Of a stretch of 16,876 nt of DNA, positions 11,055 through 16,876 are shown one piece after another. Position 1 is the first letter of the stretch. Every line of letters starts with the position of its first letter. A program made the position numbers and the translations under genes. The notes beneath the pieces are model-generated. The model had not been told where the DNA came from and did not search any database. It saw only the letters and a list, made by a program, of their open reading frames with translations. The DNA is taken from assembly GCA_964645535.1 (NCBI GenBank), contig CAZYCQ010000034.1, forward strand, positions 2,204 to 19,079, written 5' to 3'. The DNA comes from an uncultured archaeon (GTDB lineage: Archaea > Asgardarchaeota > Heimdallarchaeia > Heimdallarchaeales > Kariarchaeaceae).

Positions 11055-12851
11055 TCAATCATTGAAAAAATGATAAGTGTTCAAAATAAGCTCAGCAAGA
11101 GTTTGACCTTGAATTACCCTCTTAAATTGACTTGTGAAATGGTAATATGAAAGATCAATAGAGGGCAAGAAAAGAAGATCATTGGGATGGAAAATCCACC
11201 TAAATTGCCTGAGTTGTTTATATGTATGGAGAATCGGCGTCAAGACGTTTCCTTGGTTTAATGAGCACAAAAAGAAAATTCGACCCACATTTTTCTCTTT
11301 TCCAAGTCGATGAATGAACCATCTATAAAAGGAAAAAATATCGATTTCGCCCAACTCCTGCATTGCTTCCTTTATAATTGTTTCAACTTCAGTGTCAGAA
11401 TTCAGATCCTGAATTTCCTTCAAGACAGAACTAAGAGAGATTTTGGGAGATAAGTTATCGGCAGGGTTAATATGTGGGATAGGTGAAGAAGAAAATTCGT
11501 AGAAAGTACTATTTTCAAAAGTATTCAATTCAGAAAATATTTCATGGCAAACCTCATCGAATTGGGCAGGGCTACAACTGTTCTCTGACTTGAAACGCTT
11601 AATGATTTCCATTGTCAGTAAATCATTGGCTTGGTTTAAACTTGAAATGAAAAACGCCACATAAATATGATTAAGCCCAACACTATCGGCACCCCAATTT
11701 GTTGCAAGGTCAACACTTCTTCTAATAAATCCACCGAGTTCCCTAAATTTTAGGGTAACATAACCATAAGTTTCTGCCAAAATGCGAGATAGGTCAAGAA
11801 GAGCCCAAACAGCATCTTGAGAGAATTCCATTTGGTTTTTTTGTTTTTTAATTTCTTGACTGATAAATTGTAGGAGACCCGAATGATAATTCGGAATTTC
11901 TTTTGTTTCATTCGGAAGCATGACCTCATATCCATATCCTTGAAATCGAGACCGAAGGGCAGGATGCAAAAGGTTTACTGTTTCTTTGTTTCCAGCGGCC
12001 ACGAGGGCAAAATCACAAGGAATGGGATCGGATCTCACTGCGGATGAGGATGAGCCTTCAGAATTTCCAGAAATCGGGAGTTTTTTTTCTTGTAGAACAG
12101 ACAGCAACTTTATTTGGGTAGAGTATTTTAACGTTCCAATTTCATCAATATACAGGGTTCCTCCATTTGCCCTGTGGACAGAACCAGGGATCAACCGTTT
12201 GTGAGCGGGAATCGCAAGATTTCCAGACTGATATGGATCATGGAGGACGTCCCCAAAAAGACCATTATCTGCTTGACCAGTTGCATCTACAAAGGGTGAC
12301 TTCCCCCCTTTTATCAGTATTTCGAATTCATCTTTCGGAGACCCATGTGTAGTTTGATTTATTTGAAAAGCCTTCCAAGTCTCAAAAGAAATAAGAACAA
12401 GCAGAAGCAAAAGGATCGAGGTTGTGTTGAAACCATCAAAGAACATTATTTTTCCCAAAATAAGCGAAAAGATAATGTAAAATATGTTTGATCGCAGTTT
12501 TTGAGTCCAAGGTTTGATTGACATTTGTTCTGCATAATCTTGAATTGCAGGTTCTGCGTTTCCAGCCTTTACAAGAAGGATCTTCGGACGAAAGGGATTG
12601 TCGGGGTTTTGCTTCGCGATGATGTCATAGGTGGAATAAGAGGGCTGAAGCTCAGAGTAAGCTTTTCCTAACATAGATTTACCGATACCAGGAGATCCAA
12701 TTAGTAAAACATTGCGCCTGTTTTTGGCTGCAATTTTTACAATTTCCTTTGCATGATTTTGACCGATAACTTGGTCAATTATTTTTTCAGTTTGCTTAAG
12801 TGATAGAACACCTTTGTATTTCATCTGATAGAATAAACTGTCAAGATTCAT
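11055..12851 (-). CDS. lonB: Archaeal LonB-like membrane AAA+ ATPase with a degenerate (probably inactive) protease domain
   Basis: 'IDQVIGQNHA', Walker A GSPGIGKS, two-TM insertion, 'PFVDATG...LFGDVLHDPYQSG.L..PAH.R', Walker B LYIDEI, 'AAGN', 'HPALRSRFQGYGYEV', 'TLKFRELGG'. No GDSAS motif in the C-domain. Start is ATG 12851 or GTG 12857, overlapping the upstream gene. Confidence 0.9.
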   Translation of the reverse strand: MNLDSLFYQMKYKGVLSLKQTEKIIDQVIGQNHAKEIVKIAAKNRRNVLLIGSPGIGKSMLGKAYSELQPSYSTYDIIAKQNPDNPFRPKILLVKAGNAEPAIQDYAEQMSIKPWTQKLRSNIFYIIFSLILGKIMFFDGFNTTSILLLLLVLISFETWKAFQINQTTHGSPKDEFEILIKGGKSPFVDATGQADNGLFGDVLHDPYQSGNLAIPAHKRLIPGSVHRANGGTLYIDEIGTLKYSTQIKLLSVLQEKKLPISGNSEGSSSSAVRSDPIPCDFALVAAGNKETVNLLHPALRSRFQGYGYEVMLPNETKEIPNYHSGLLQFISQEIKKQKNQMEFSQDAVWALLDLSRILAETYGYVTLKFRELGGFIRRSVDLATNWGADSVGLNHIYVAFFISSLNQANDLLTMEIIKRFKSENSCSPAQFDEVCHEIFSELNTFENSTFYEFSSSPIPHINPADNLSPKISLSSVLKEIQDLNSDTEVETIIKEAMQELGEIDIFSFYRWFIHRLGKEKNVGRIFFLCSLNQGNVLTPILHTYKQLRQFRWIFHPNDLLFLPSIDLSYYHFTSQFKRVIQGQTLAELILNTYHFFND

Positions 12852-15447
12852 GACCACACCACTTACAAGTTATTTCATCCGCTGAAACAATAAAAGTGCA
12901 AGAATTGCATGTTTTTTGCTTGTGGGAAGAAATTTTTCGTTTGACCTTTAGTTTTCTCGGAATTAAAGAAATAAAGAGACCAATTAAGAAAGAGATCAAA
13001 AACCATTGAATTAATCCTGGCAAAAATAGTTCAGTATCAATAACAATTTGCTCCACATTACCATTTGCAAAGATAAGATAAAGTTCTGTCTTCATTCGAT
13101 CCTTTAAATCAAGGGGTAAAGGTACAATCATAAAATGCTCTTTCTTTCCAACAGGAGTTATTTTTCTTTCTCCGTCAGTAATTTGTAAGAGATATTGGAT
13201 TGTTTCAGATGCTCTTAACCTTATTTGGACAAAAAGAGGAAACTGAACGGCATATGCAAAGATTTCCCCTTCATTTGGCAAATATCCGAGAGCATGTAAG
13301 AGGAAGTCTATGGTAGCATGCTCTGGAAGACCGAGAGCTATGTTAAATTCCTGAAGAAGATCAAGAAGCATGTACGATGAACTTATGTGGATCAATTTGC
13401 CGTTACCTATCCGAATGAAATATGCATTGGATAAGTTGTTCGACACTGGATTTTTTACTAAAAGGGTGGGAAAATCGACTGAGACATTAAAAGCCTTTGG
13501 AGTATCAGACAGGAACGGAAATGTTGCATTATCTCCATGAAATGTGTTGTTTCTCTCAGGAAAGGACATAAAGGAAATATCTTGCACGTAAGAAATTATA
13601 TTATCCCTGTTGTCGTAAAAGGATTTATTTCCGAAGATTTCAAAACCGAAATTGAACATTGGATCAATAAGTGTAAGATTTAATGGTGAAAACCAAGAAA
13701 ATGGAATGAATTGGGGGTGAAAAACGGATGAATTTGTTTGACCAAAAAACCCTTCAAAATCTTCCCCACCAAACAGGACGGATTTTCCACTTTTAATGAA
13801 TTCATAAACAGCATTTTCAAACGTCATGGAGGAATTTAATTCAGGATCAATAATGATTAAGCTTTGGAATTTTTCAAGTGTATGTACATTTGGCTCTTCA
13901 TAAATTGAATAAAGGGCAATTCCTTGGTATGCAAGGTAAGTTTCGAAGGAGTGATATATTCCTGAAGCGGTATCTTGAAGCATGATTGATGTATCATTTT
14001 CCAAATGTCGTACCATTCCTATCTGAAATTTCGGAACCACTATCGAAATGGAAAACGACTGTGATAGAACATCAATGTTATTTTGGAGGGATATTTCAAT
14101 ATCAAACCTTCCAGGTTGTTCAGGAACATCAGTTATCGTTACTTCAAGAACCAAAATACCTGAGAATGTAGGAACTCGTAAATCCACATGATTACCCAAA
14201 GGACTGATGTGGACATCAAGATATTGGATCTGAAATAAATCATTATCGGGTTCAAATACAGAATATGTCAAATGATAACGGAATTCTTCGCCTAACCAAA
14301 GATAGGATGATGAAGTGAGGTTCCCTACAGATTTAGTAGGAGAACGATACGGAAAGATAAAGGGTTCGATATTAATCAATGATTTTACAGCGGATTTCTT
14401 TAAAGTTTCAAAAAGTTCTGAAAAGTTAATTATTCCTCTTCCTGCAAAATTGTTTTTGTCGGAGGATTCCCAGCTGATTGAAGTTTGCAAGATTCCATTT
14501 TTCAGCTCAAAAGGAGAGATATTTGATCGTATAGACTTTCCAAGTACCTGAACCAGACCTGCAGCAAGGAATGCACAAGGAATATCAAAAGAAGTTTCCA
14601 ATCCATCTGGTAGAGTTGCGTTTTGAAGTTGATCGAAAAAGCCATCATAGAACTCTTTGCTATCCAAAAATGGAACTGCAATATCGGCACGTGCATTGGT
14701 TTCATAGTTGGACCTTGATTGAAGAGGATGTAGAGTATATTGCAATGGCGAATATGGATCAATATATTCGGGAGAAGATTTCGTGACAACGCCAACACGC
14801 AATATTTCGGGGAAAAATGACAACGGATTTACCAAATCCAAATCAAAGCCATAATTTCCAAACGGAGAGATCACGAGAGTCCCTTCACTCACCAAACGGG
14901 TAATTTCGCCCTCTAAAATCCCAAGGTTGAACGGAGAGATAGGGGAAAGTAACAAGACAATGTCCGTTTTTTCAATTGACTTTAAAGTTTCCAATATAAG
15001 GGTATTATTCACATTATGGTAAGTTTCTCTAACTTCGTAGACTGAAATTGACGTGTGATTTAGAATGTCTATTTCATATGAAGAGTACATAGAAAGAATG
15101 AGGTCGGTATAGGTAACCAGATTTCCTTCTGAATCTATGGTGGAGTTCACCATATTGACGTCCACAACATTTCCAACATTATTCCAAAGATTGAGGCCAT
15201 CTCCAACAATGGAAATTGAAATATTCCGAAGCCACTTATTTGGAAGCCTGTCATACCCAGTCAGAGCTTTTGCTACGGAAATTGAAATTGGAAAACTCTT
15301 GCCTTCGTTTTCATTAATCTGTCCCTGATAAATAATGGGGTTCTCAGTTTTCACTTTTCCAAAGGAGAATGGGGTGAACAAAATAGATAAGATCATTAAG
15401 GAAAGCAACGAAATACGAACTAAACCAGCCATAAAAGTTGTCACCAT
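12841..15447 (-). CDS. Membrane-anchored S8 subtilase homolog (Site-1-protease/MBTPS1-like layout), catalytically degenerate, with a cytoplasmic zinc ribbon
   Basis: Colinear S8 landmarks: ISIVGDGL, DSEGNLVT, VISPFGNYG, PEILRVG, SR...ADIAVP, ETSFD, PFELKNGILQTS, AGRGIIN. Then an Ig-like region, a GATase-like domain 'TYLAYQGI...FQSLIIIDPE...EFIKSGKSVLFGGE', a TM, a basic stretch and CNSC-x10-CKWC. Alternative start ATG 15432. Confidence 0.72.
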   Translation of the reverse strand: MVTTFMAGLVRISLLSLMILSILFTPFSFGKVKTENPIIYQGQINENEGKSFPISISVAKALTGYDRLPNKWLRNISISIVGDGLNLWNNVGNVVDVNMVNSTIDSEGNLVTYTDLILSMYSSYEIDILNHTSISVYEVRETYHNVNNTLILETLKSIEKTDIVLLLSPISPFNLGILEGEITRLVSEGTLVISPFGNYGFDLDLVNPLSFFPEILRVGVVTKSSPEYIDPYSPLQYTLHPLQSRSNYETNARADIAVPFLDSKEFYDGFFDQLQNATLPDGLETSFDIPCAFLAAGLVQVLGKSIRSNISPFELKNGILQTSISWESSDKNNFAGRGIINFSELFETLKKSAVKSLINIEPFIFPYRSPTKSVGNLTSSSYLWLGEEFRYHLTYSVFEPDNDLFQIQYLDVHISPLGNHVDLRVPTFSGILVLEVTITDVPEQPGRFDIEISLQNNIDVLSQSFSISIVVPKFQIGMVRHLENDTSIMLQDTASGIYHSFETYLAYQGIALYSIYEEPNVHTLEKFQSLIIIDPELNSSMTFENAVYEFIKSGKSVLFGGEDFEGFFGQTNSSVFHPQFIPFSWFSPLNLTLIDPMFNFGFEIFGNKSFYDNRDNIISYVQDISFMSFPERNNTFHGDNATFPFLSDTPKAFNVSVDFPTLLVKNPVSNNLSNAYFIRIGNGKLIHISSSYMLLDLLQEFNIALGLPEHATIDFLLHALGYLPNEGEIFAYAVQFPLFVQIRLRASETIQYLLQITDGERKITPVGKKEHFMIVPLPLDLKDRMKTELYLIFANGNVEQIVIDTELFLPGLIQWFLISFLIGLFISLIPRKLKVKRKISSHKQKTCNSCTFIVSADEITCKWCGHES

Positions 15448-15451
15448 GAAA

Positions 15452-16729
15452 CTATTTCTTCAAATCCCTTGACCAATTAAATGGTTTATAGGATTTCTTT
15501 AAAAAGGATCGACCCGCTTTTGTTCCAAATAGTATTCGGAGCATTAAATAAGCGATGATAAGGAAACCGACCACAAGACCCCAATTGCGGTTCGTTTTGG
15601 AAGAAGCAGATGATTGACCCAAATCATCACGTAAAATCTCTCCATTTTCAGTGAGAACCAACACACTTACCTCAATTGAAGATCCTCTGTTTCCTAGAGC
15701 ATCATAGGGTGTTACTAAAATAGAATAAGCATAGTAACGGGCTTTAAGGGCATCAGTCAAATCTACTTGATTTTCATGGACAGTATCCAAATACTCGCCA
15801 TCAATTTCTATGTCATAATGATCAGGGTTAGAGAACTGATCCTCTGCAAACCAATGAAGTACAAAGGGATCATTTTCCCGTATCTCTAGATGAGGAACGG
15901 AAAGGTACTCAGTTGTTATAAGATTTAATCCAATGAATTCAATCACGGGACCTTCACTGTCGATTATTATATTTATTGACTTACTTATCCAGATACGGGA
16001 GTAATCCATTGCACGAATTGTTAAATTTGTGGGAGATGAAGAGGAAGACCCCAATTCTAATCCATGAGATCTAAAATATGTTGAATTCACAAAGTACCGG
16101 GTATTGTTTTCCTCTGAAATAGGAGGCCCATCCATATCAATAGCAAAATAGACATCCCCATTCTTCAAAATCTCTATGGCAATCAGTCTAATATCTTCAA
16201 TGATTTCAAAATTCAGGATATGGCGAGGTGACACTATTTCATTCTCTGAAAGACCAACCAACGAAATTTTCGGAGGCTGAAGATCAAAGGGAATTATGAC
16301 CAATGGAACATGCTTTGTTATTTCTGTGCCATTGACATCAATTTTAATTTCAAAGGTTGTTTCTCTTGGTTGAATATCCAAAAAATTGTTCCGGGAAACA
16401 TTCCATTGTCCAGATCCTATATTTTCAAATTGCAAAAAGATTTGTGTGGAAATGGTACTGAGTCCCTCAGTGTCAACGAGCCAAAAGGTTGGATTGGCAT
16501 TTACCTCAACAGTCTCGGAAGAAGTGGTATTGATTAGGGTCAAGGTCAAAAATAATGATGAATTTTGTGTTATCTCAATGGAGGAAATTGAATCATTTAA
16601 CAGAATGTCCAAAGACGAGTCATCAATATTATGAATTTGAGGAATAGTGACAATTGGATGACCGAGATTAGACATAAAATTTGGCATGAAGATAAGACTT
16701 AGTGACAGACACAATAATATTTTTTTCAT
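15452..16729 (-). CDS. Surface glycoprotein with Ig-like domains and a C-terminal TM anchor
   Basis: Start reassigned to ATG 16729 (MKKILLCLSLSL signal peptide; TTTTTAAT about 20 nt upstream). Ig-like signatures 'DLQPPKI...LTIRAMDYSR' and 'DSEGPVI...W..ED....PDHY.I.IDG...ILVTPYDALGN'. TM 'WGLVVGFLIIAYLMLRILF'. Many sequons. The stop lies 4 nt from the next start. Confidence 0.8.
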   Translation of the reverse strand: MKKILLCLSLSLIFMPNFMSNLGHPIVTIPQIHNIDDSSLDILLNDSISSIEITQNSSLFLTLTLINTTSSETVEVNANPTFWLVDTEGLSTISTQIFLQFENIGSGQWNVSRNNFLDIQPRETTFEIKIDVNGTEITKHVPLVIIPFDLQPPKISLVGLSENEIVSPRHILNFEIIEDIRLIAIEILKNGDVYFAIDMDGPPISEENNTRYFVNSTYFRSHGLELGSSSSSPTNLTIRAMDYSRIWISKSINIIIDSEGPVIEFIGLNLITTEYLSVPHLEIRENDPFVLHWFAEDQFSNPDHYDIEIDGEYLDTVHENQVDLTDALKARYYAYSILVTPYDALGNRGSSIEVSVLVLTENGEILRDDLGQSSASSKTNRNWGLVVGFLIIAYLMLRILFGTKAGRSFLKKSYKPFNWSRDLKK

Positions 16730-16876
16730 ATGACAATTGCCTTGTGAAATTAAAAAAAAAATTTCCATTGTTGCACTTCATAAGGCACATAATTAGGAAA
16801 AAAAAACAACTTTCAAATCAACAAATCATGGAAATAACCAGCAAATCGACATTATTTTAAATATTTCACTATAAAA

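What the first reader, a model, noticed from the sequence alone, without database searches (positions are those of the whole stretch)
11055..16729. Operon of two apparent pseudoproteases plus an Ig surface protein
Seen: three tightly coupled genes (4-nt gap; 11-17-nt overlap) with intact long reading frames, all membrane-anchored. They encode an Ig-like protein, a subtilase homolog lacking catalytic Asp/His and a LonB lacking its Ser-Lys dyad but keeping the ATPase motifs. Inference: loss of catalysis in two unrelated protease families in one operon, without frameshifts, suggests repurposing rather than decay. One model is an outer substrate-binding pseudo-S8 coupled through its zinc-ribbon tail to an ATP-driven unfoldase or extractor, for membrane-protein quality control, polypeptide uptake or signalling.
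Basis: partly seen in the sequence, partly recalled or inferred. Interest (0 to 1): 0.82.

Follow-up and report, generated by a model that had tools for sequence, protein, structure and literature searches.

The report
Dead LonB plus dead subtilase operon
A Heimdall-group Asgard archaeon has a three-gene membrane operon in which two unrelated proteases (a LonB and a site-1-protease-like subtilase) have lost key catalytic residues while the ATP motor stays intact; two distant relatives carry the same arrangement, so it is probably a working non-proteolytic machine of unknown function.

Summary
Three minus-strand genes (15452-16768, 12841-15447, 11055-12857) are separated by a 4-nt gap and an 11/17-nt overlap, and all three products are membrane-anchored.

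- **P0001** is a LonB paralogue. Its AAA+ motifs, pore-loop motif and TM hairpin are all intact. Its C-terminal domain is a degenerate Lon protease domain without the catalytic Ser. A canonical LonB sits elsewhere in the genome (contig C12).
- **P0002** has no Pfam or PDB sequence hit. A low-confidence model, ESM features and weak collinear alignments place it in the subtilisin fold. Its domain order is S8, beta-sandwich, GIFT, TM, the same as human site-1 protease. It has no prodomain. The catalytic His is Tyr, the Asp is displaced by one residue, and Ser and Asn are kept.
- **P0003** is Ig-like by homology to a Big_7 protein.

The same cassette (Ig-like, dead S8, dead LonB) occurs in two other Heimdallarchaeia genomes, in a different genomic context each time. 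I found it in only 3 of 400 Asgard species genomes. A sister species has the syntenic locus destroyed by a roughly 4-kb deletion.

The loss of catalysis is therefore old and the genes have been maintained, but the cassette is accessory, fast-evolving and dispensable. The mechanism is inferred: an ATP-driven unfoldase or extractor coupled to a non-catalytic ectodomain binder. Earlier scan notes exist only for this same stretch.

The parts
15452..16768 (-). P0003: Ig-like surface protein of 438 aa (425 aa from the likely start M14 at 16729). It has a signal peptide, a C-terminal TM (residues 397-415, nt 15524-15580) and a basic tail.
   Evidence: ORF, hydropathy. No Pfam hit. BLASTP E 8e-12, 25% identity over 212 aa, to the first gene of the G007 cassette, which carries Big_7. 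ESM Atlas neighbours are all Ig-like clusters at 0.86, which is a lead only.
12841..15447 (-). P0002: 868-aa type I membrane protein, a prodomain-less subtilase lacking an intact catalytic triad, with the domain order of site-1 protease.
   Evidence: No Pfam or NCBIfam hit. AF2 model has mean pLDDT 47.6. Foldseek top hits are human S1P 9csd_A/8uw8_A at E 1e-14. VIA gives Z 21.1 with 501 residues aligned, model 53-736 to S1P 190-882, and subtilisins at Z 17-18. The top ten ESM Atlas hits that carry a family are all Peptidase_S8.
14398..15285 (-). Degenerate S8 (subtilisin-fold) domain, residues about 55-350. G82-D83-G84 replaces D-S-G, Tyr113 replaces the catalytic His, and Asn198 (GNYG) and Ser286 (T-S-F-D-I-P) are retained.
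   Evidence: Alignments A2 and A5 against active relatives. VIA range 55-347 against subtilisin BPN', 226 of 275 residues aligned, rmsd 3.6-3.9.
13240..14385 (-). Beta-sandwich (residues about 355-480) followed by a GIFT/DUF4350-like alpha/beta domain (about 485-736).
   Evidence: hhalign of P0002 309-561 against the active S8+DUF4350 family gives E 1.6e-4, probability 51%. Relatives carry DUF4350, IFT52_GIFT or ABC_transp_aux. The S1P alignment extends to model residue 736. The S1P domain order is taken from PMC11231238.
12859..13017 (-). C-terminal TM helix (residues 811-829), a Lys/Arg-rich linker, and a four-Cys zinc-ribbon-like tail (C846, C849, C860, C863) predicted to face the cytoplasm.
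   Evidence: Hydropathy, sequence. Weak UPF0547 hit at E 0.25. The G007 homologue has a DZR hit at E 0.036. The G046 homologue lacks the tail.
11055..12857 (-). P0001: 600-aa LonB paralogue (start at GTG 12857 or ATG 12851).
   Evidence: TIGR00764 E 4.5e-104 but covering profile positions 2-408 only. The AF2 model has pLDDT 85-96 over most of the AAA+ module, residues 20-400. Foldseek matches T. onnurineus LonB 3k1j at E 1e-34, 35% identity.
11643..12800 (-). AAA+ module, residues about 20-405. It has Walker A G54-S61, the invariant H206-D207-P208-Y209 motif (which I read as the tip of pore loop-1), Walker B D238-E239, sensor-1 N290, Arg finger R302/R304 and sensor-2 R372/R379. The membrane hairpin lies between Walker A and B (residues about 125-166, nt 12360-12485).
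   Evidence: These columns are invariant or nearly invariant in the 10-member paralogue alignment A4 and against canonical LonB. TM hairpin.
11058..11585 (-). Degenerate Lon protease (S16) domain without the catalytic Ser, residues about 425-600.
   Evidence: No Lon_C hit. A profile of the paralogue C-termini against canonical LonB protease domains gives hhalign probability 96.6%, E 4.9e-10, 128 columns. The Ser column is non-Ser in all 10 members. The P0001 model is unconfident here, pLDDT 25-50. This domain evolves faster than the AAA+ module.

Best explanation
This is a maintained but accessory three-part membrane module of Heimdallarchaeia.

Shown:
- A LonB-derived AAA+ ATPase keeps every motor motif and its membrane hairpin. 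Its protease domain has lost the catalytic Ser and survives only as a diverged structural domain.
- The gene immediately upstream, overlapping it, encodes a type I membrane protein. Its ectodomain is a prodomain-less subtilase without an intact triad, with the S8, beta-sandwich, GIFT, TM layout of site-1 protease.
- The gene before that encodes an Ig-like anchored surface protein.

Inferred:
- The dead S8/GIFT ectodomain acts as a non-catalytic binder of an extracellular or membrane-embedded polypeptide or glycan ligand, possibly together with the Ig-like protein.
- The pseudo-LonB hexamer on the cytoplasmic face uses ATP to pull on, unfold or extract a membrane-spanning client. The client could be one of its own partners, held by the cytoplasmic tail. 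The client is released rather than degraded.
- This would resemble the inactive FtsH (FtsHi) subunits proposed to form part of the chloroplast import motor.

The cassette evolves fast, has unusually low GC for this genome, sits in a different genomic context in each genome, and can be lost.
For: - Tight coupling and intact long ORFs in a stop-rich sequence.
- Invariant Walker A/B, sensor-1, Arg finger, sensor-2 and the HDPY motif across 10 paralogues that share only 32-37% identity with P0001.
- Confident AAA+ model matching LonB 3k1j/4zpx.
- The paralogues form one clade, separated from all canonical LonBs with 97/97 support.
- All 10 lack the catalytic Ser, yet the C-terminal domain is still Lon-like at profile level, E 4.9e-10.
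- A canonical LonB is present in the same genome at 833 bits.
- The same gene order with a dead S8 is found in G046 (same genus, different locus) and in G007 (Ca. Heimdallarchaeum endolithica, another family). There the S8 domain is still recognised by Pfam (E 7e-13) although D, H, N and S are all replaced.
- P0003 is homologous to the first gene of the G007 cassette.
- P0002 has the S8/S1P-like fold.
- dN/dS is about 0.23-0.35 in the two segments that survive in the sister species, consistent with past purifying selection.
Against: - No expression, interaction or activity data exist. The mechanism is pure inference.
- The P0002 model is low-confidence (pLDDT 47.6) and was built on an alignment that contains active S8 proteins, so it is not independent of them.
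- The cassette was found in only 3 of 400 Asgard species genomes.
- The syntenic locus in sister species G044 is a deletion remnant.
- The zinc-ribbon tail is absent in G046.
- The dead Lon domain of P0001 is very diverged and is not modelled as a Lon fold.
- Ser286 and Asn198 persist in P0002, so residual or non-canonical hydrolysis is not excluded.
- The dN/dS rests on about 100 codons with near-saturated dS.
Confidence: 0.45

Rival explanations
1. The pseudo-LonB does not work alone. It co-assembles with the canonical LonB into mixed hexamers and tunes or retargets its proteolysis, for example towards the cassette's own membrane proteins or towards clients they recruit. This would resemble FtsHi subunits assembling with the active FtsH12.
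For: A canonical LonB is present in the same genome. The AAA+ module and TM hairpin, which would include the ring interfaces, are conserved at 38-46% identity with canonical LonB. FtsHi/FtsH12 is the precedent (PMC8197885, PMC10500165).
Against: The paralogue clade is long-branched and distinct. Its C-terminal ring domain is very diverged, which would hinder mixed protease rings. In G007 the canonical LonB is itself interrupted. There is no co-localisation with lonB.
Confidence: 0.15
2. The cassette builds or maintains a cell-surface structure or adhesin. The Ig-like and dead-S8/GIFT proteins are the displayed components. The ATPase is an assembly, insertion or turnover chaperone for them rather than an extractor of foreign clients.
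For: All three products are anchored. The ectodomains evolve fast, as surface proteins often do. The window's neighbours are large FG-GAP/PKD/Ig surface proteins. The G007 and G046 cassettes carry one or two extra anchored proteins. GIFT domains were proposed to bind sugars (cited in PMC11231238).
Against: There is no known precedent for a LonB-type motor in surface assembly. No S-layer or pilus genes are adjacent. The topology puts the motor on the opposite face of the membrane from the ectodomains.
Confidence: 0.2
3. The three genes are duplicates on their way to loss. Catalysis has gone because selection has relaxed, and the intact frames only reflect a recent origin in this genome, for example by recent transfer.
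For: Deletion remnant in sister species G044. Patchy distribution. GC of 36.8% lies in the lowest 2% of genome windows. Terminal branches are very long, 1.29 against a median of 0.15. The C-terminal domain is unconfident in the model.
Against: The loss of catalytic residues predates the split of three deep subclades, while the ATPase motifs stay invariant. The gene order is conserved across two families. ORFs of 438-868 aa survive where random frames stop about every 18-20 codons. dN/dS is 0.23-0.35 in the surviving segments.
Confidence: 0.12
4. P0002 is still a hydrolase that uses a non-canonical catalytic arrangement (Ser286 and Asn198 with another base), so only the Lon partner is a pseudoenzyme.
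For: The T-S-x-x-x-P motif with Ser286, the GNYG oxyanion Asn198 and an Asp one residue off the canonical position are retained, and G-D-G is also present in fragment P0005.
Against: There is no His at the aligned position (Tyr113, also Tyr in P0005). The two other cassette-linked homologues have lost Ser as well. There is no prodomain. There is no Pfam S8 signal at E <= 1.
Confidence: 0.05

Closest known systems
Archaeal membrane LonB protease (TIGR00764; T. onnurineus LonB, PDB 3k1j/4zpx)
   Same: Same AAA+ module with the membrane hairpin inserted between Walker A and Walker B, at 35% identity to 3k1j. All motor motifs are present. The C-terminal domain is derived from the Lon protease domain.
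   Different: The catalytic Ser is lost and the protease domain has diverged beyond Pfam recognition. The score is below the family cut-off. It forms a separate clade of 10 members and coexists with a canonical LonB.
Eukaryotic site-1 protease (MBTPS1/S1P/SKI-1; PDB 8uw8, 9csd; PMC11231238)
   Same: Type I membrane protein with the order S8 domain, beta-sandwich, GIFT domain, TM, short basic cytoplasmic tail. It is the best structural match: Z 21.1, 501 residues aligned. ESM neighbours at ranks 2-3 are MBTPS1 clusters.
   Different: No A/B prodomains, no intact triad, and an added zinc-ribbon tail. There are no MBTPS1_3rd/4th Pfam hits. By sequence profile the active archaeal relatives are closest to Tk-SP-type subtilases, with S1P matched only over the S8 core. 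The resemblance is therefore one of architecture; orthology is not shown.
FtsHi, the proteolytically inactive FtsH paralogues of the chloroplast inner envelope (PMC8197885, PMC10500165)
   Same: A membrane-anchored AAA+ protease paralogue that lost its protease active site, kept its AAA+ ATPase domain, and is retained by selection. It has been proposed to be part of a protein-pulling import motor.
   Different: A different protease family (M41 metalloprotease, not S16). It is eukaryotic, organellar and essential, whereas this cassette is rare and dispensable. No functional data exist here.
RadA/Sms and ComM (YifB family)
   Same: P-loop ring NTPases fused to a Lon-protease-like domain that lacks the catalytic dyad and is thought to serve ring assembly. 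This rests on my own knowledge of these families plus the abstract of PMC11612176. ComM appears among the weaker fold hits.
   Different: These are soluble DNA helicases/translocases with no membrane hairpin, and they are not derived from LonB.
PCSK9
   Same: A subtilase-fold protein that acts on its target (the LDL receptor) by binding rather than cleaving. This is from my own knowledge and was not tested here.
   Different: PCSK9 keeps its triad and autoprocesses, is secreted and keeps its prodomain bound. P0002 lacks both an intact triad and a prodomain and is membrane-anchored.

Membership tests
LonB (TIGR00764 / MEROPS S16, LonB subfamily) | AAA+ module with Walker A, Walker B, sensor-1, Arg finger and sensor-2 | tested here: met
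   G54-S61, D238-E239, N290, R302/R304 and R372/R379 are invariant or nearly invariant in A4 and align to canonical LonB. Model pLDDT is 85-96 over most of the module.
LonB (TIGR00764 / MEROPS S16, LonB subfamily) | Membrane-anchoring hairpin inserted between Walker A and Walker B | tested here: met
   Hydrophobic segments at 125-166, modelled as two long helices at 101-169.
LonB (TIGR00764 / MEROPS S16, LonB subfamily) | C-terminal S16 protease domain with a Ser-Lys dyad | tested here: not met
   No Lon_C hit. The Ser column of G-D-S-A-S is not Ser in any of the 10 paralogues. The Lys is ambiguous in P0001 only. Domain homology survives at profile level.
LonB (TIGR00764 / MEROPS S16, LonB subfamily) | Score above the curated equivalog cut-off (516.6 bits) | tested here: not met
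   349.2 bits, profile positions 2-408 of 608. The genome's canonical copy scores 832.8 bits.
Peptidase S8 (subtilases, PF00082) | Subtilisin alpha/beta fold | tested here: met
   VIA Z 17-18 to subtilisins, about 226 of 275 residues aligned, model 55-347. Foldseek E 1e-7 to 1e-14. Caveats: model pLDDT is 47.6 and its alignment includes active S8 proteins. ESM features give independent support.
Peptidase S8 (subtilases, PF00082) | Asp-His-Ser catalytic triad with oxyanion Asn | tested here: not met
   His is replaced by Tyr113. Asp is displaced (G82-D83-G84 against D-S-G). Asn198 and Ser286 are present. The exact column for His differs between alignments A2 and A5, but no His occurs in residues 95-130.
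Peptidase S8 (subtilases, PF00082) | Recognition by the family profile | tested here: not met
   No PF00082 hit at E <= 1 and no PDB sequence hit. The link is transitive, through the G007 homologue (PF00082 E 7e-13) and hhalign E 1.6e-4.
Site-1 protease (MBTPS1)-type architecture | S8 + P-like beta-sandwich + GIFT + C-terminal TM + short cytoplasmic tail | tested here: met
   Model 53-736 aligns to S1P 190-882, Z 21.1. TM at 811-829. The architecture definition is from PMC11231238.
Site-1 protease (MBTPS1)-type architecture | N-terminal A/B prodomains removed by autoproteolysis | tested here: not met
   Only about 30-50 residues lie between the signal peptide and the S8 core. The propeptide block of the active relatives is a gap in P0002.
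Site-1 protease (MBTPS1)-type architecture | Specific sequence kinship to MBTPS1 (MBTPS1_3rd/4th domains) | tested here: inconclusive
   No such Pfam hits in P0002 or its relatives. A profile of the active relatives matches S1P only over the S8 core, behind Tk-SP. ESM neighbours include MBTPS1 clusters at 0.87-0.89, which is a lead only.
Bacterial Ig-like domain proteins (Big_7 type), for P0003 | Tandem Ig-like beta-sandwich domains | tested here: inconclusive
   No Pfam hit in P0003 itself. It is homologous to the G007 protein that carries Big_7 at E 6.9e-9. ESM neighbours are all Ig-like at 0.86.
AAA+ pseudoprotease motors (FtsHi-like way of working) | ATP-dependent unfolding or translocation without proteolysis | not testable with these tools
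   Only motif conservation is available. ATPase, unfoldase and protease assays are needed.

The most novel reading that the evidence does not exclude
The cassette is a previously undescribed kind of transmembrane machine. A dead site-1-protease-like ectodomain captures an external or membrane-tethered client. A dead-LonB AAA+ ring then extracts or unfolds that client from the cytoplasmic side, without degrading it, for signalling or membrane-protein dislocation. This would be an Asgard analogue of eukaryotic systems that process or dislocate membrane-tethered factors. It arose from an archaeal S8-GIFT subtilase family that may also be the source of eukaryotic S1P.
Probability: 0.12. Interest if true: 0.85.

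Novelty: new variant of a known kind. Interest (0 to 1): 0.55.

Why it matters
Pseudoenzymes that keep a motor or a binding fold while losing catalysis are well known in eukaryotes (FtsHi, iRhoms/Derlins, PCSK9). They are rarely documented as conserved operons in archaea.

Here two unrelated protease families have lost key catalytic residues together and stay genetically coupled across deep divergence in Heimdallarchaeia, the Asgard lineage often placed nearest to eukaryotes. That gives a concrete, testable candidate for a non-proteolytic LonB-type motor.

It also draws attention to an archaeal subtilase family with the domain order of eukaryotic site-1 protease. I found no paper mentioning this. 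The weight is limited because the cassette is rare, dispensable and functionally untested.

Tried and rejected
- **Word-index search of 5.8 billion proteins.** P0002, and the C-terminus of P0001, found only themselves.
- **Full HMMER search of 1.8 billion representatives with P0002.** It gave only a 141-aa fragment (P0005, 57% identity) and a LysM-repeat protein (P0006). P0006 matched in 11 short stretches; I regard it as a repeat or composition artefact.
- **Pfam, NCBIfam, PADLOC and PDB sequence searches.** No Pfam family for P0002 or P0003 reached its gathering cut-off, and there were no NCBIfam, PADLOC or meaningful PDB sequence hits. P0001 gave only generic AAA+ hits in PADLOC, so no known defence system is indicated.
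- **The look-up of encoding contigs was closed.** I could not inspect the neighbourhoods of the metagenomic paralogues P0007-P0013, P0017, P0065 and P0073.
- **Four collection scans.** Queries P0065 and P0012 in genome contigs, and P0017 and A8 in metagenome contigs, returned nothing new apart from G007 itself.
- **The genome's other S8 (C12, 861 aa).** It is a Tk-SP-type subtilase with PPC and Big_7 domains. It is not an active twin of P0002.
- **A link to nearby membrane-tethered or PadR-type regulators.** I considered the window gene at 5405-7261 and the PadR+HAAS pair beside the G046 cassette. I left this as an idea only: it appears in at most 2 of 3 loci and the genes are not adjacent in G000.
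- **Per-domain dN/dS.** Not possible. No close intact orthologue DNA was available, and dS between G000 and G044 is near saturation.


Full report
**Setting.** The window is G000:C34:2204-19079. G000 is a 3.6-Mb, 89%-complete genome. Earlier scan notes call it a Heimdall-group Asgard archaeon. This fits the source names of its closest LonB-like relatives, such as Heimdallarchaeaceae. It also fits one same-order genome, G007, being CP084167.1, Ca. Heimdallarchaeum endolithica PR6.

**Observation.**
- Three minus-strand ORFs of 438, 868 and 600 aa lie at 15452-16768, 12841-15447 and 11055-12857.
- They are separated by a 4-nt gap and a 17-nt overlap (11 nt if P0001 starts at the ATG).
- The gene upstream of P0003 is on the other strand, so the unit has three genes.
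- The other five frames over this stretch hold 85-115 stops and no open run longer than 108 aa.
- Hydropathy gives P0003 a signal peptide and a C-terminal anchor.
- It gives P0002 a signal peptide, a TM at 811-829 and a basic tail with CxxC-x10-CxxC.
- It gives P0001 a hairpin at about 125-166.

**P0001 (the LonB-like protein).**
- NCBIfam LonB (TIGR00764) matches at E 4.5e-104, but only over profile positions 2-408 of 608. The score is 349 bits against a cut-off of 516.6. Pfam finds AAA+ families but no Lon_C.
- A canonical LonB lies on contig C12: 832.8 bits, full length, with G-D-S-A-S and G-G-V-T-x-K.
- The word-index search found ten proteins of 527-651 aa that lack Lon_C. Those with a source name are from Heimdall/Asgard MAGs.
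- Across these ten, Walker A, Walker B, sensor-1, the Arg finger, sensor-2 and an H-D-P-Y motif are invariant or nearly so, although they share only 32-37% identity with P0001. I read the H-D-P-Y motif as the tip of pore loop-1. It lies between the hairpin and Walker B, where PMC9569914 places that loop.
- The column of the catalytic Ser is never Ser. The Lys column is replaced in every member except possibly P0001. MAFFT aligns a T-Y-K there; hhalign aligns that region differently.
- A profile of the paralogue C-termini still matches a profile of 102 canonical LonB protease domains (hhalign probability 96.6%, E 4.9e-10, 128 columns). The domain is therefore a diverged Lon domain, not a replacement.
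- It evolves much faster than the motor: for example 78% against 47% identity, and 57% against 24%.
- The AF2 model is confident for the AAA+ module and hairpin, with pLDDT 85-96 over most of residues 20-400. It is not confident for residues 425-600. Its best PDB match is T. onnurineus LonB at E 1e-34 and 35% identity.
- In a maximum-likelihood tree of the AAA+ module, the ten paralogues sit on one side of a 97/97-supported branch, away from 17 Heimdall and 20 other archaeal LonBs. They form three subclades. P0001 has a very long branch (1.29 against a median of 0.15), so its exact placement is unsure.

**P0002 (the subtilase-like protein).**
- No Pfam family reached its gathering cut-off, and there was no NCBIfam hit and no meaningful PDB sequence hit.
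- The evidence for subtilase ancestry is indirect but consistent across five lines:
  - The cassette-linked homologue in G007 (925 aa) has Peptidase_S8 at E 7e-13, ABC_transp_aux (GIFT-like) and a double zinc ribbon. It aligns collinearly with P0002 over 544 residues at 22.6% identity, pairwise E 0.11.
  - hhalign of P0002 against a 14-member family of active roughly 980-aa S8+DUF4350/GIFT proteins gives E 1.6e-4 over residues 309-561.
  - ESM Atlas features place it among S8 clusters. The top hit is an archaeal S8+DUF4350 cluster at 0.90 with 178 shared features. The next two are eukaryotic MBTPS1 clusters.
  - An AF2 model was built on an 18-row alignment (mean pLDDT 47.6, pTM 0.48). Its best Foldseek hits are human site-1 protease with SPRING (9csd_A, 8uw8_A; E 1e-14).
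  - The second-look aligner gives Z 21.1 with 501 residues aligned, model 53-736 to S1P 190-882. Plain subtilisins give Z 17-18 over model 55-347.
- Human S1P is described as signal peptide, A/B prodomains, S8, P-like beta-sandwich, GIFT, TM and a short tail (PMC11231238). P0002 has the same order minus the prodomains.
- Caveat: the model leans on an alignment that contains active S8 proteins.
- Catalytic positions, by alignment to the active relatives:
  - Asp: D-S-G is replaced by G82-D83-G84.
  - His: G-H-G-T is replaced by T-Y113-T-D, and no His occurs nearby.
  - Oxyanion Asn198 is kept (G-N-Y-G).
  - Ser286 is kept. G-T-S-x-x-x-P reads E-T-S-F-D-I-P.
- The G007 and G046 homologues have lost Asp, His and Ser; only G046 keeps the Asn.

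**P0003.** No Pfam family reached its gathering cut-off. BLASTP gives E 8e-12 to the first gene of the G007 cassette, which carries Big_7. ESM neighbours are Ig-like clusters.

**Conservation of the cassette.**
- G046 (same genus) has genes of 341, 337, 838 and 565 aa with overlaps.
- G007 (another family of the same order) has genes of 442, 326, 363, 925 and 588 aa with 4-8-nt gaps or overlaps.
- Flanking genes differ in all three genomes.
- A profile of the paralogues searched against 400 Asgard species genomes found full-length members only in G000, G046 and G007. They scored 640-851 bits, against 440-520 bits for canonical LonBs.
- The active S8-GIFT relatives stand alone. In the two loci I inspected they sit next to Nop5/fibrillarin genes, not next to a Lon gene.

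**Loss in a sister species.**
- In G044 (same genus; its canonical LonB is nearly identical to G000's), the syntenic locus next to the DUF3179 gene holds a single 119-aa frame.
- That frame joins the equivalent of P0002 residues about 29-79 directly to P0001 residues about 546-600. There are stops where the signal peptide should be. This amounts to a deletion of roughly 4 kb.
- The surviving segments are 56% and 65% identical to G000, with dN/dS of 0.35 and 0.23. Neighbouring genes are 58-80% identical, with saturated dS.
- The cassette's GC (36.8%) lies in the lowest 2% of 5.7-kb windows of the genome, whose mean is 41.3%.

**Reading.**
- Loss of catalysis in both protease lineages predates the split of the subclades. 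Meanwhile the motor, the reading frames and the gene order persist. This argues for repurposed pseudoenzymes rather than decay.
- Rarity, changing genomic context, low GC and a clean loss in a sister species mark the cassette as accessory and dispensable.
- Topology puts the dead S8/GIFT and Ig-like domains outside the cell, and the AAA+ ring and zinc-ribbon tail inside.
- I therefore favour an ATP-driven, non-degradative pulling or extracting device coupled to an outside binder. The nearest functional analogy is FtsHi (PMC8197885, PMC10500165). This is inference only.
- The rivals, listed with what would refute each, are: mixed rings with canonical LonB; assembly or maintenance of a surface structure; ongoing decay; and residual hydrolysis by P0002.

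**Literature.** Searches for LonB pseudoproteases, for Lon-like proteins lacking protease activity in archaea, for site-1 protease in Asgard, and for GIFT-subtilases in archaea found no description of this cassette. The library does not cover most subscription journals.

**Earlier scan notes.** Two first-reader notes on this same stretch (e1-5626496, e1-5626495) made the S1P-like and dead-LonB calls. I reached both independently before reading them. I found no note on other DNA.

**Limits.**
- All genomes are MAGs.
- There is no expression or biochemical evidence.
- The P0002 model is low-confidence.
- The exact alignment of the catalytic columns in the most diverged regions is uncertain.

Noticed in passing
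L043:6537-9485, L046-L073 (alignment A6); no counterpart found in G000: Most genomes of the sister family (about 27 of 31) encode a stand-alone subtilase of roughly 970-1010 aa that appears active. Its order is signal peptide, propeptide, S8 (D/H/N/S intact), beta-sandwich, GIFT/DUF4350, TM. This is the domain order of eukaryotic site-1 protease. By sequence profile S1P matches only the S8 core, so orthology is open. I found no paper linking S1P to Asgard archaea.
   Followed up: partly
L105:1244-4752 (G007:C1:3315243-3318751); same hit pattern in G006, G004, G032: The canonical LonB of Ca. Heimdallarchaeum is encoded as two abutting ORFs. The first (708 aa) has Walker A plus an Intein_splicing domain. 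The second (460 aa) has Walker B, the LID and Lon_C. They share one base at the junction. This could be an intein-interrupted or a split LonB. Many other Asgard families show only a 480-540-aa frame matching the LonB profile at about positions 150-450.
   Followed up: partly
L040:7350-7972 (G044:C188): In-frame fusion remnant of the pseudo-S8 N-terminus and the pseudo-LonB C-terminus at the syntenic site of a sister species. It is a clean example of recent loss of the cassette, a deletion of roughly 4 kb.
   Followed up: yes
L039:10735-12238 (G046), window 5405-7261: A PadR regulator plus a HAAS membrane partner lie convergent to the G046 cassette. In the window, a single-pass receptor with a cytoplasmic wHTH (noted earlier by the scan) lies 3.8 kb from the operon. 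A link between pseudo-S1P and membrane-tethered regulators is tempting but is seen in at most 2 of 3 loci.
   Followed up: partly
window 11055-16768: The operon's GC content (36.8%) is about 2 SD below the genome mean (41.3%), in the lowest 2% of windows. This suggests horizontal acquisition or a strong compositional bias in these Asn/Ser/Ile-rich surface proteins.
   Followed up: partly
window 657-5307: Two large surface proteins with MG2, FG-GAP, PKD and Ig-like domains (679 and 866 aa) sit upstream in the window, so this region of the contig is rich in envelope proteins.
   Followed up: no
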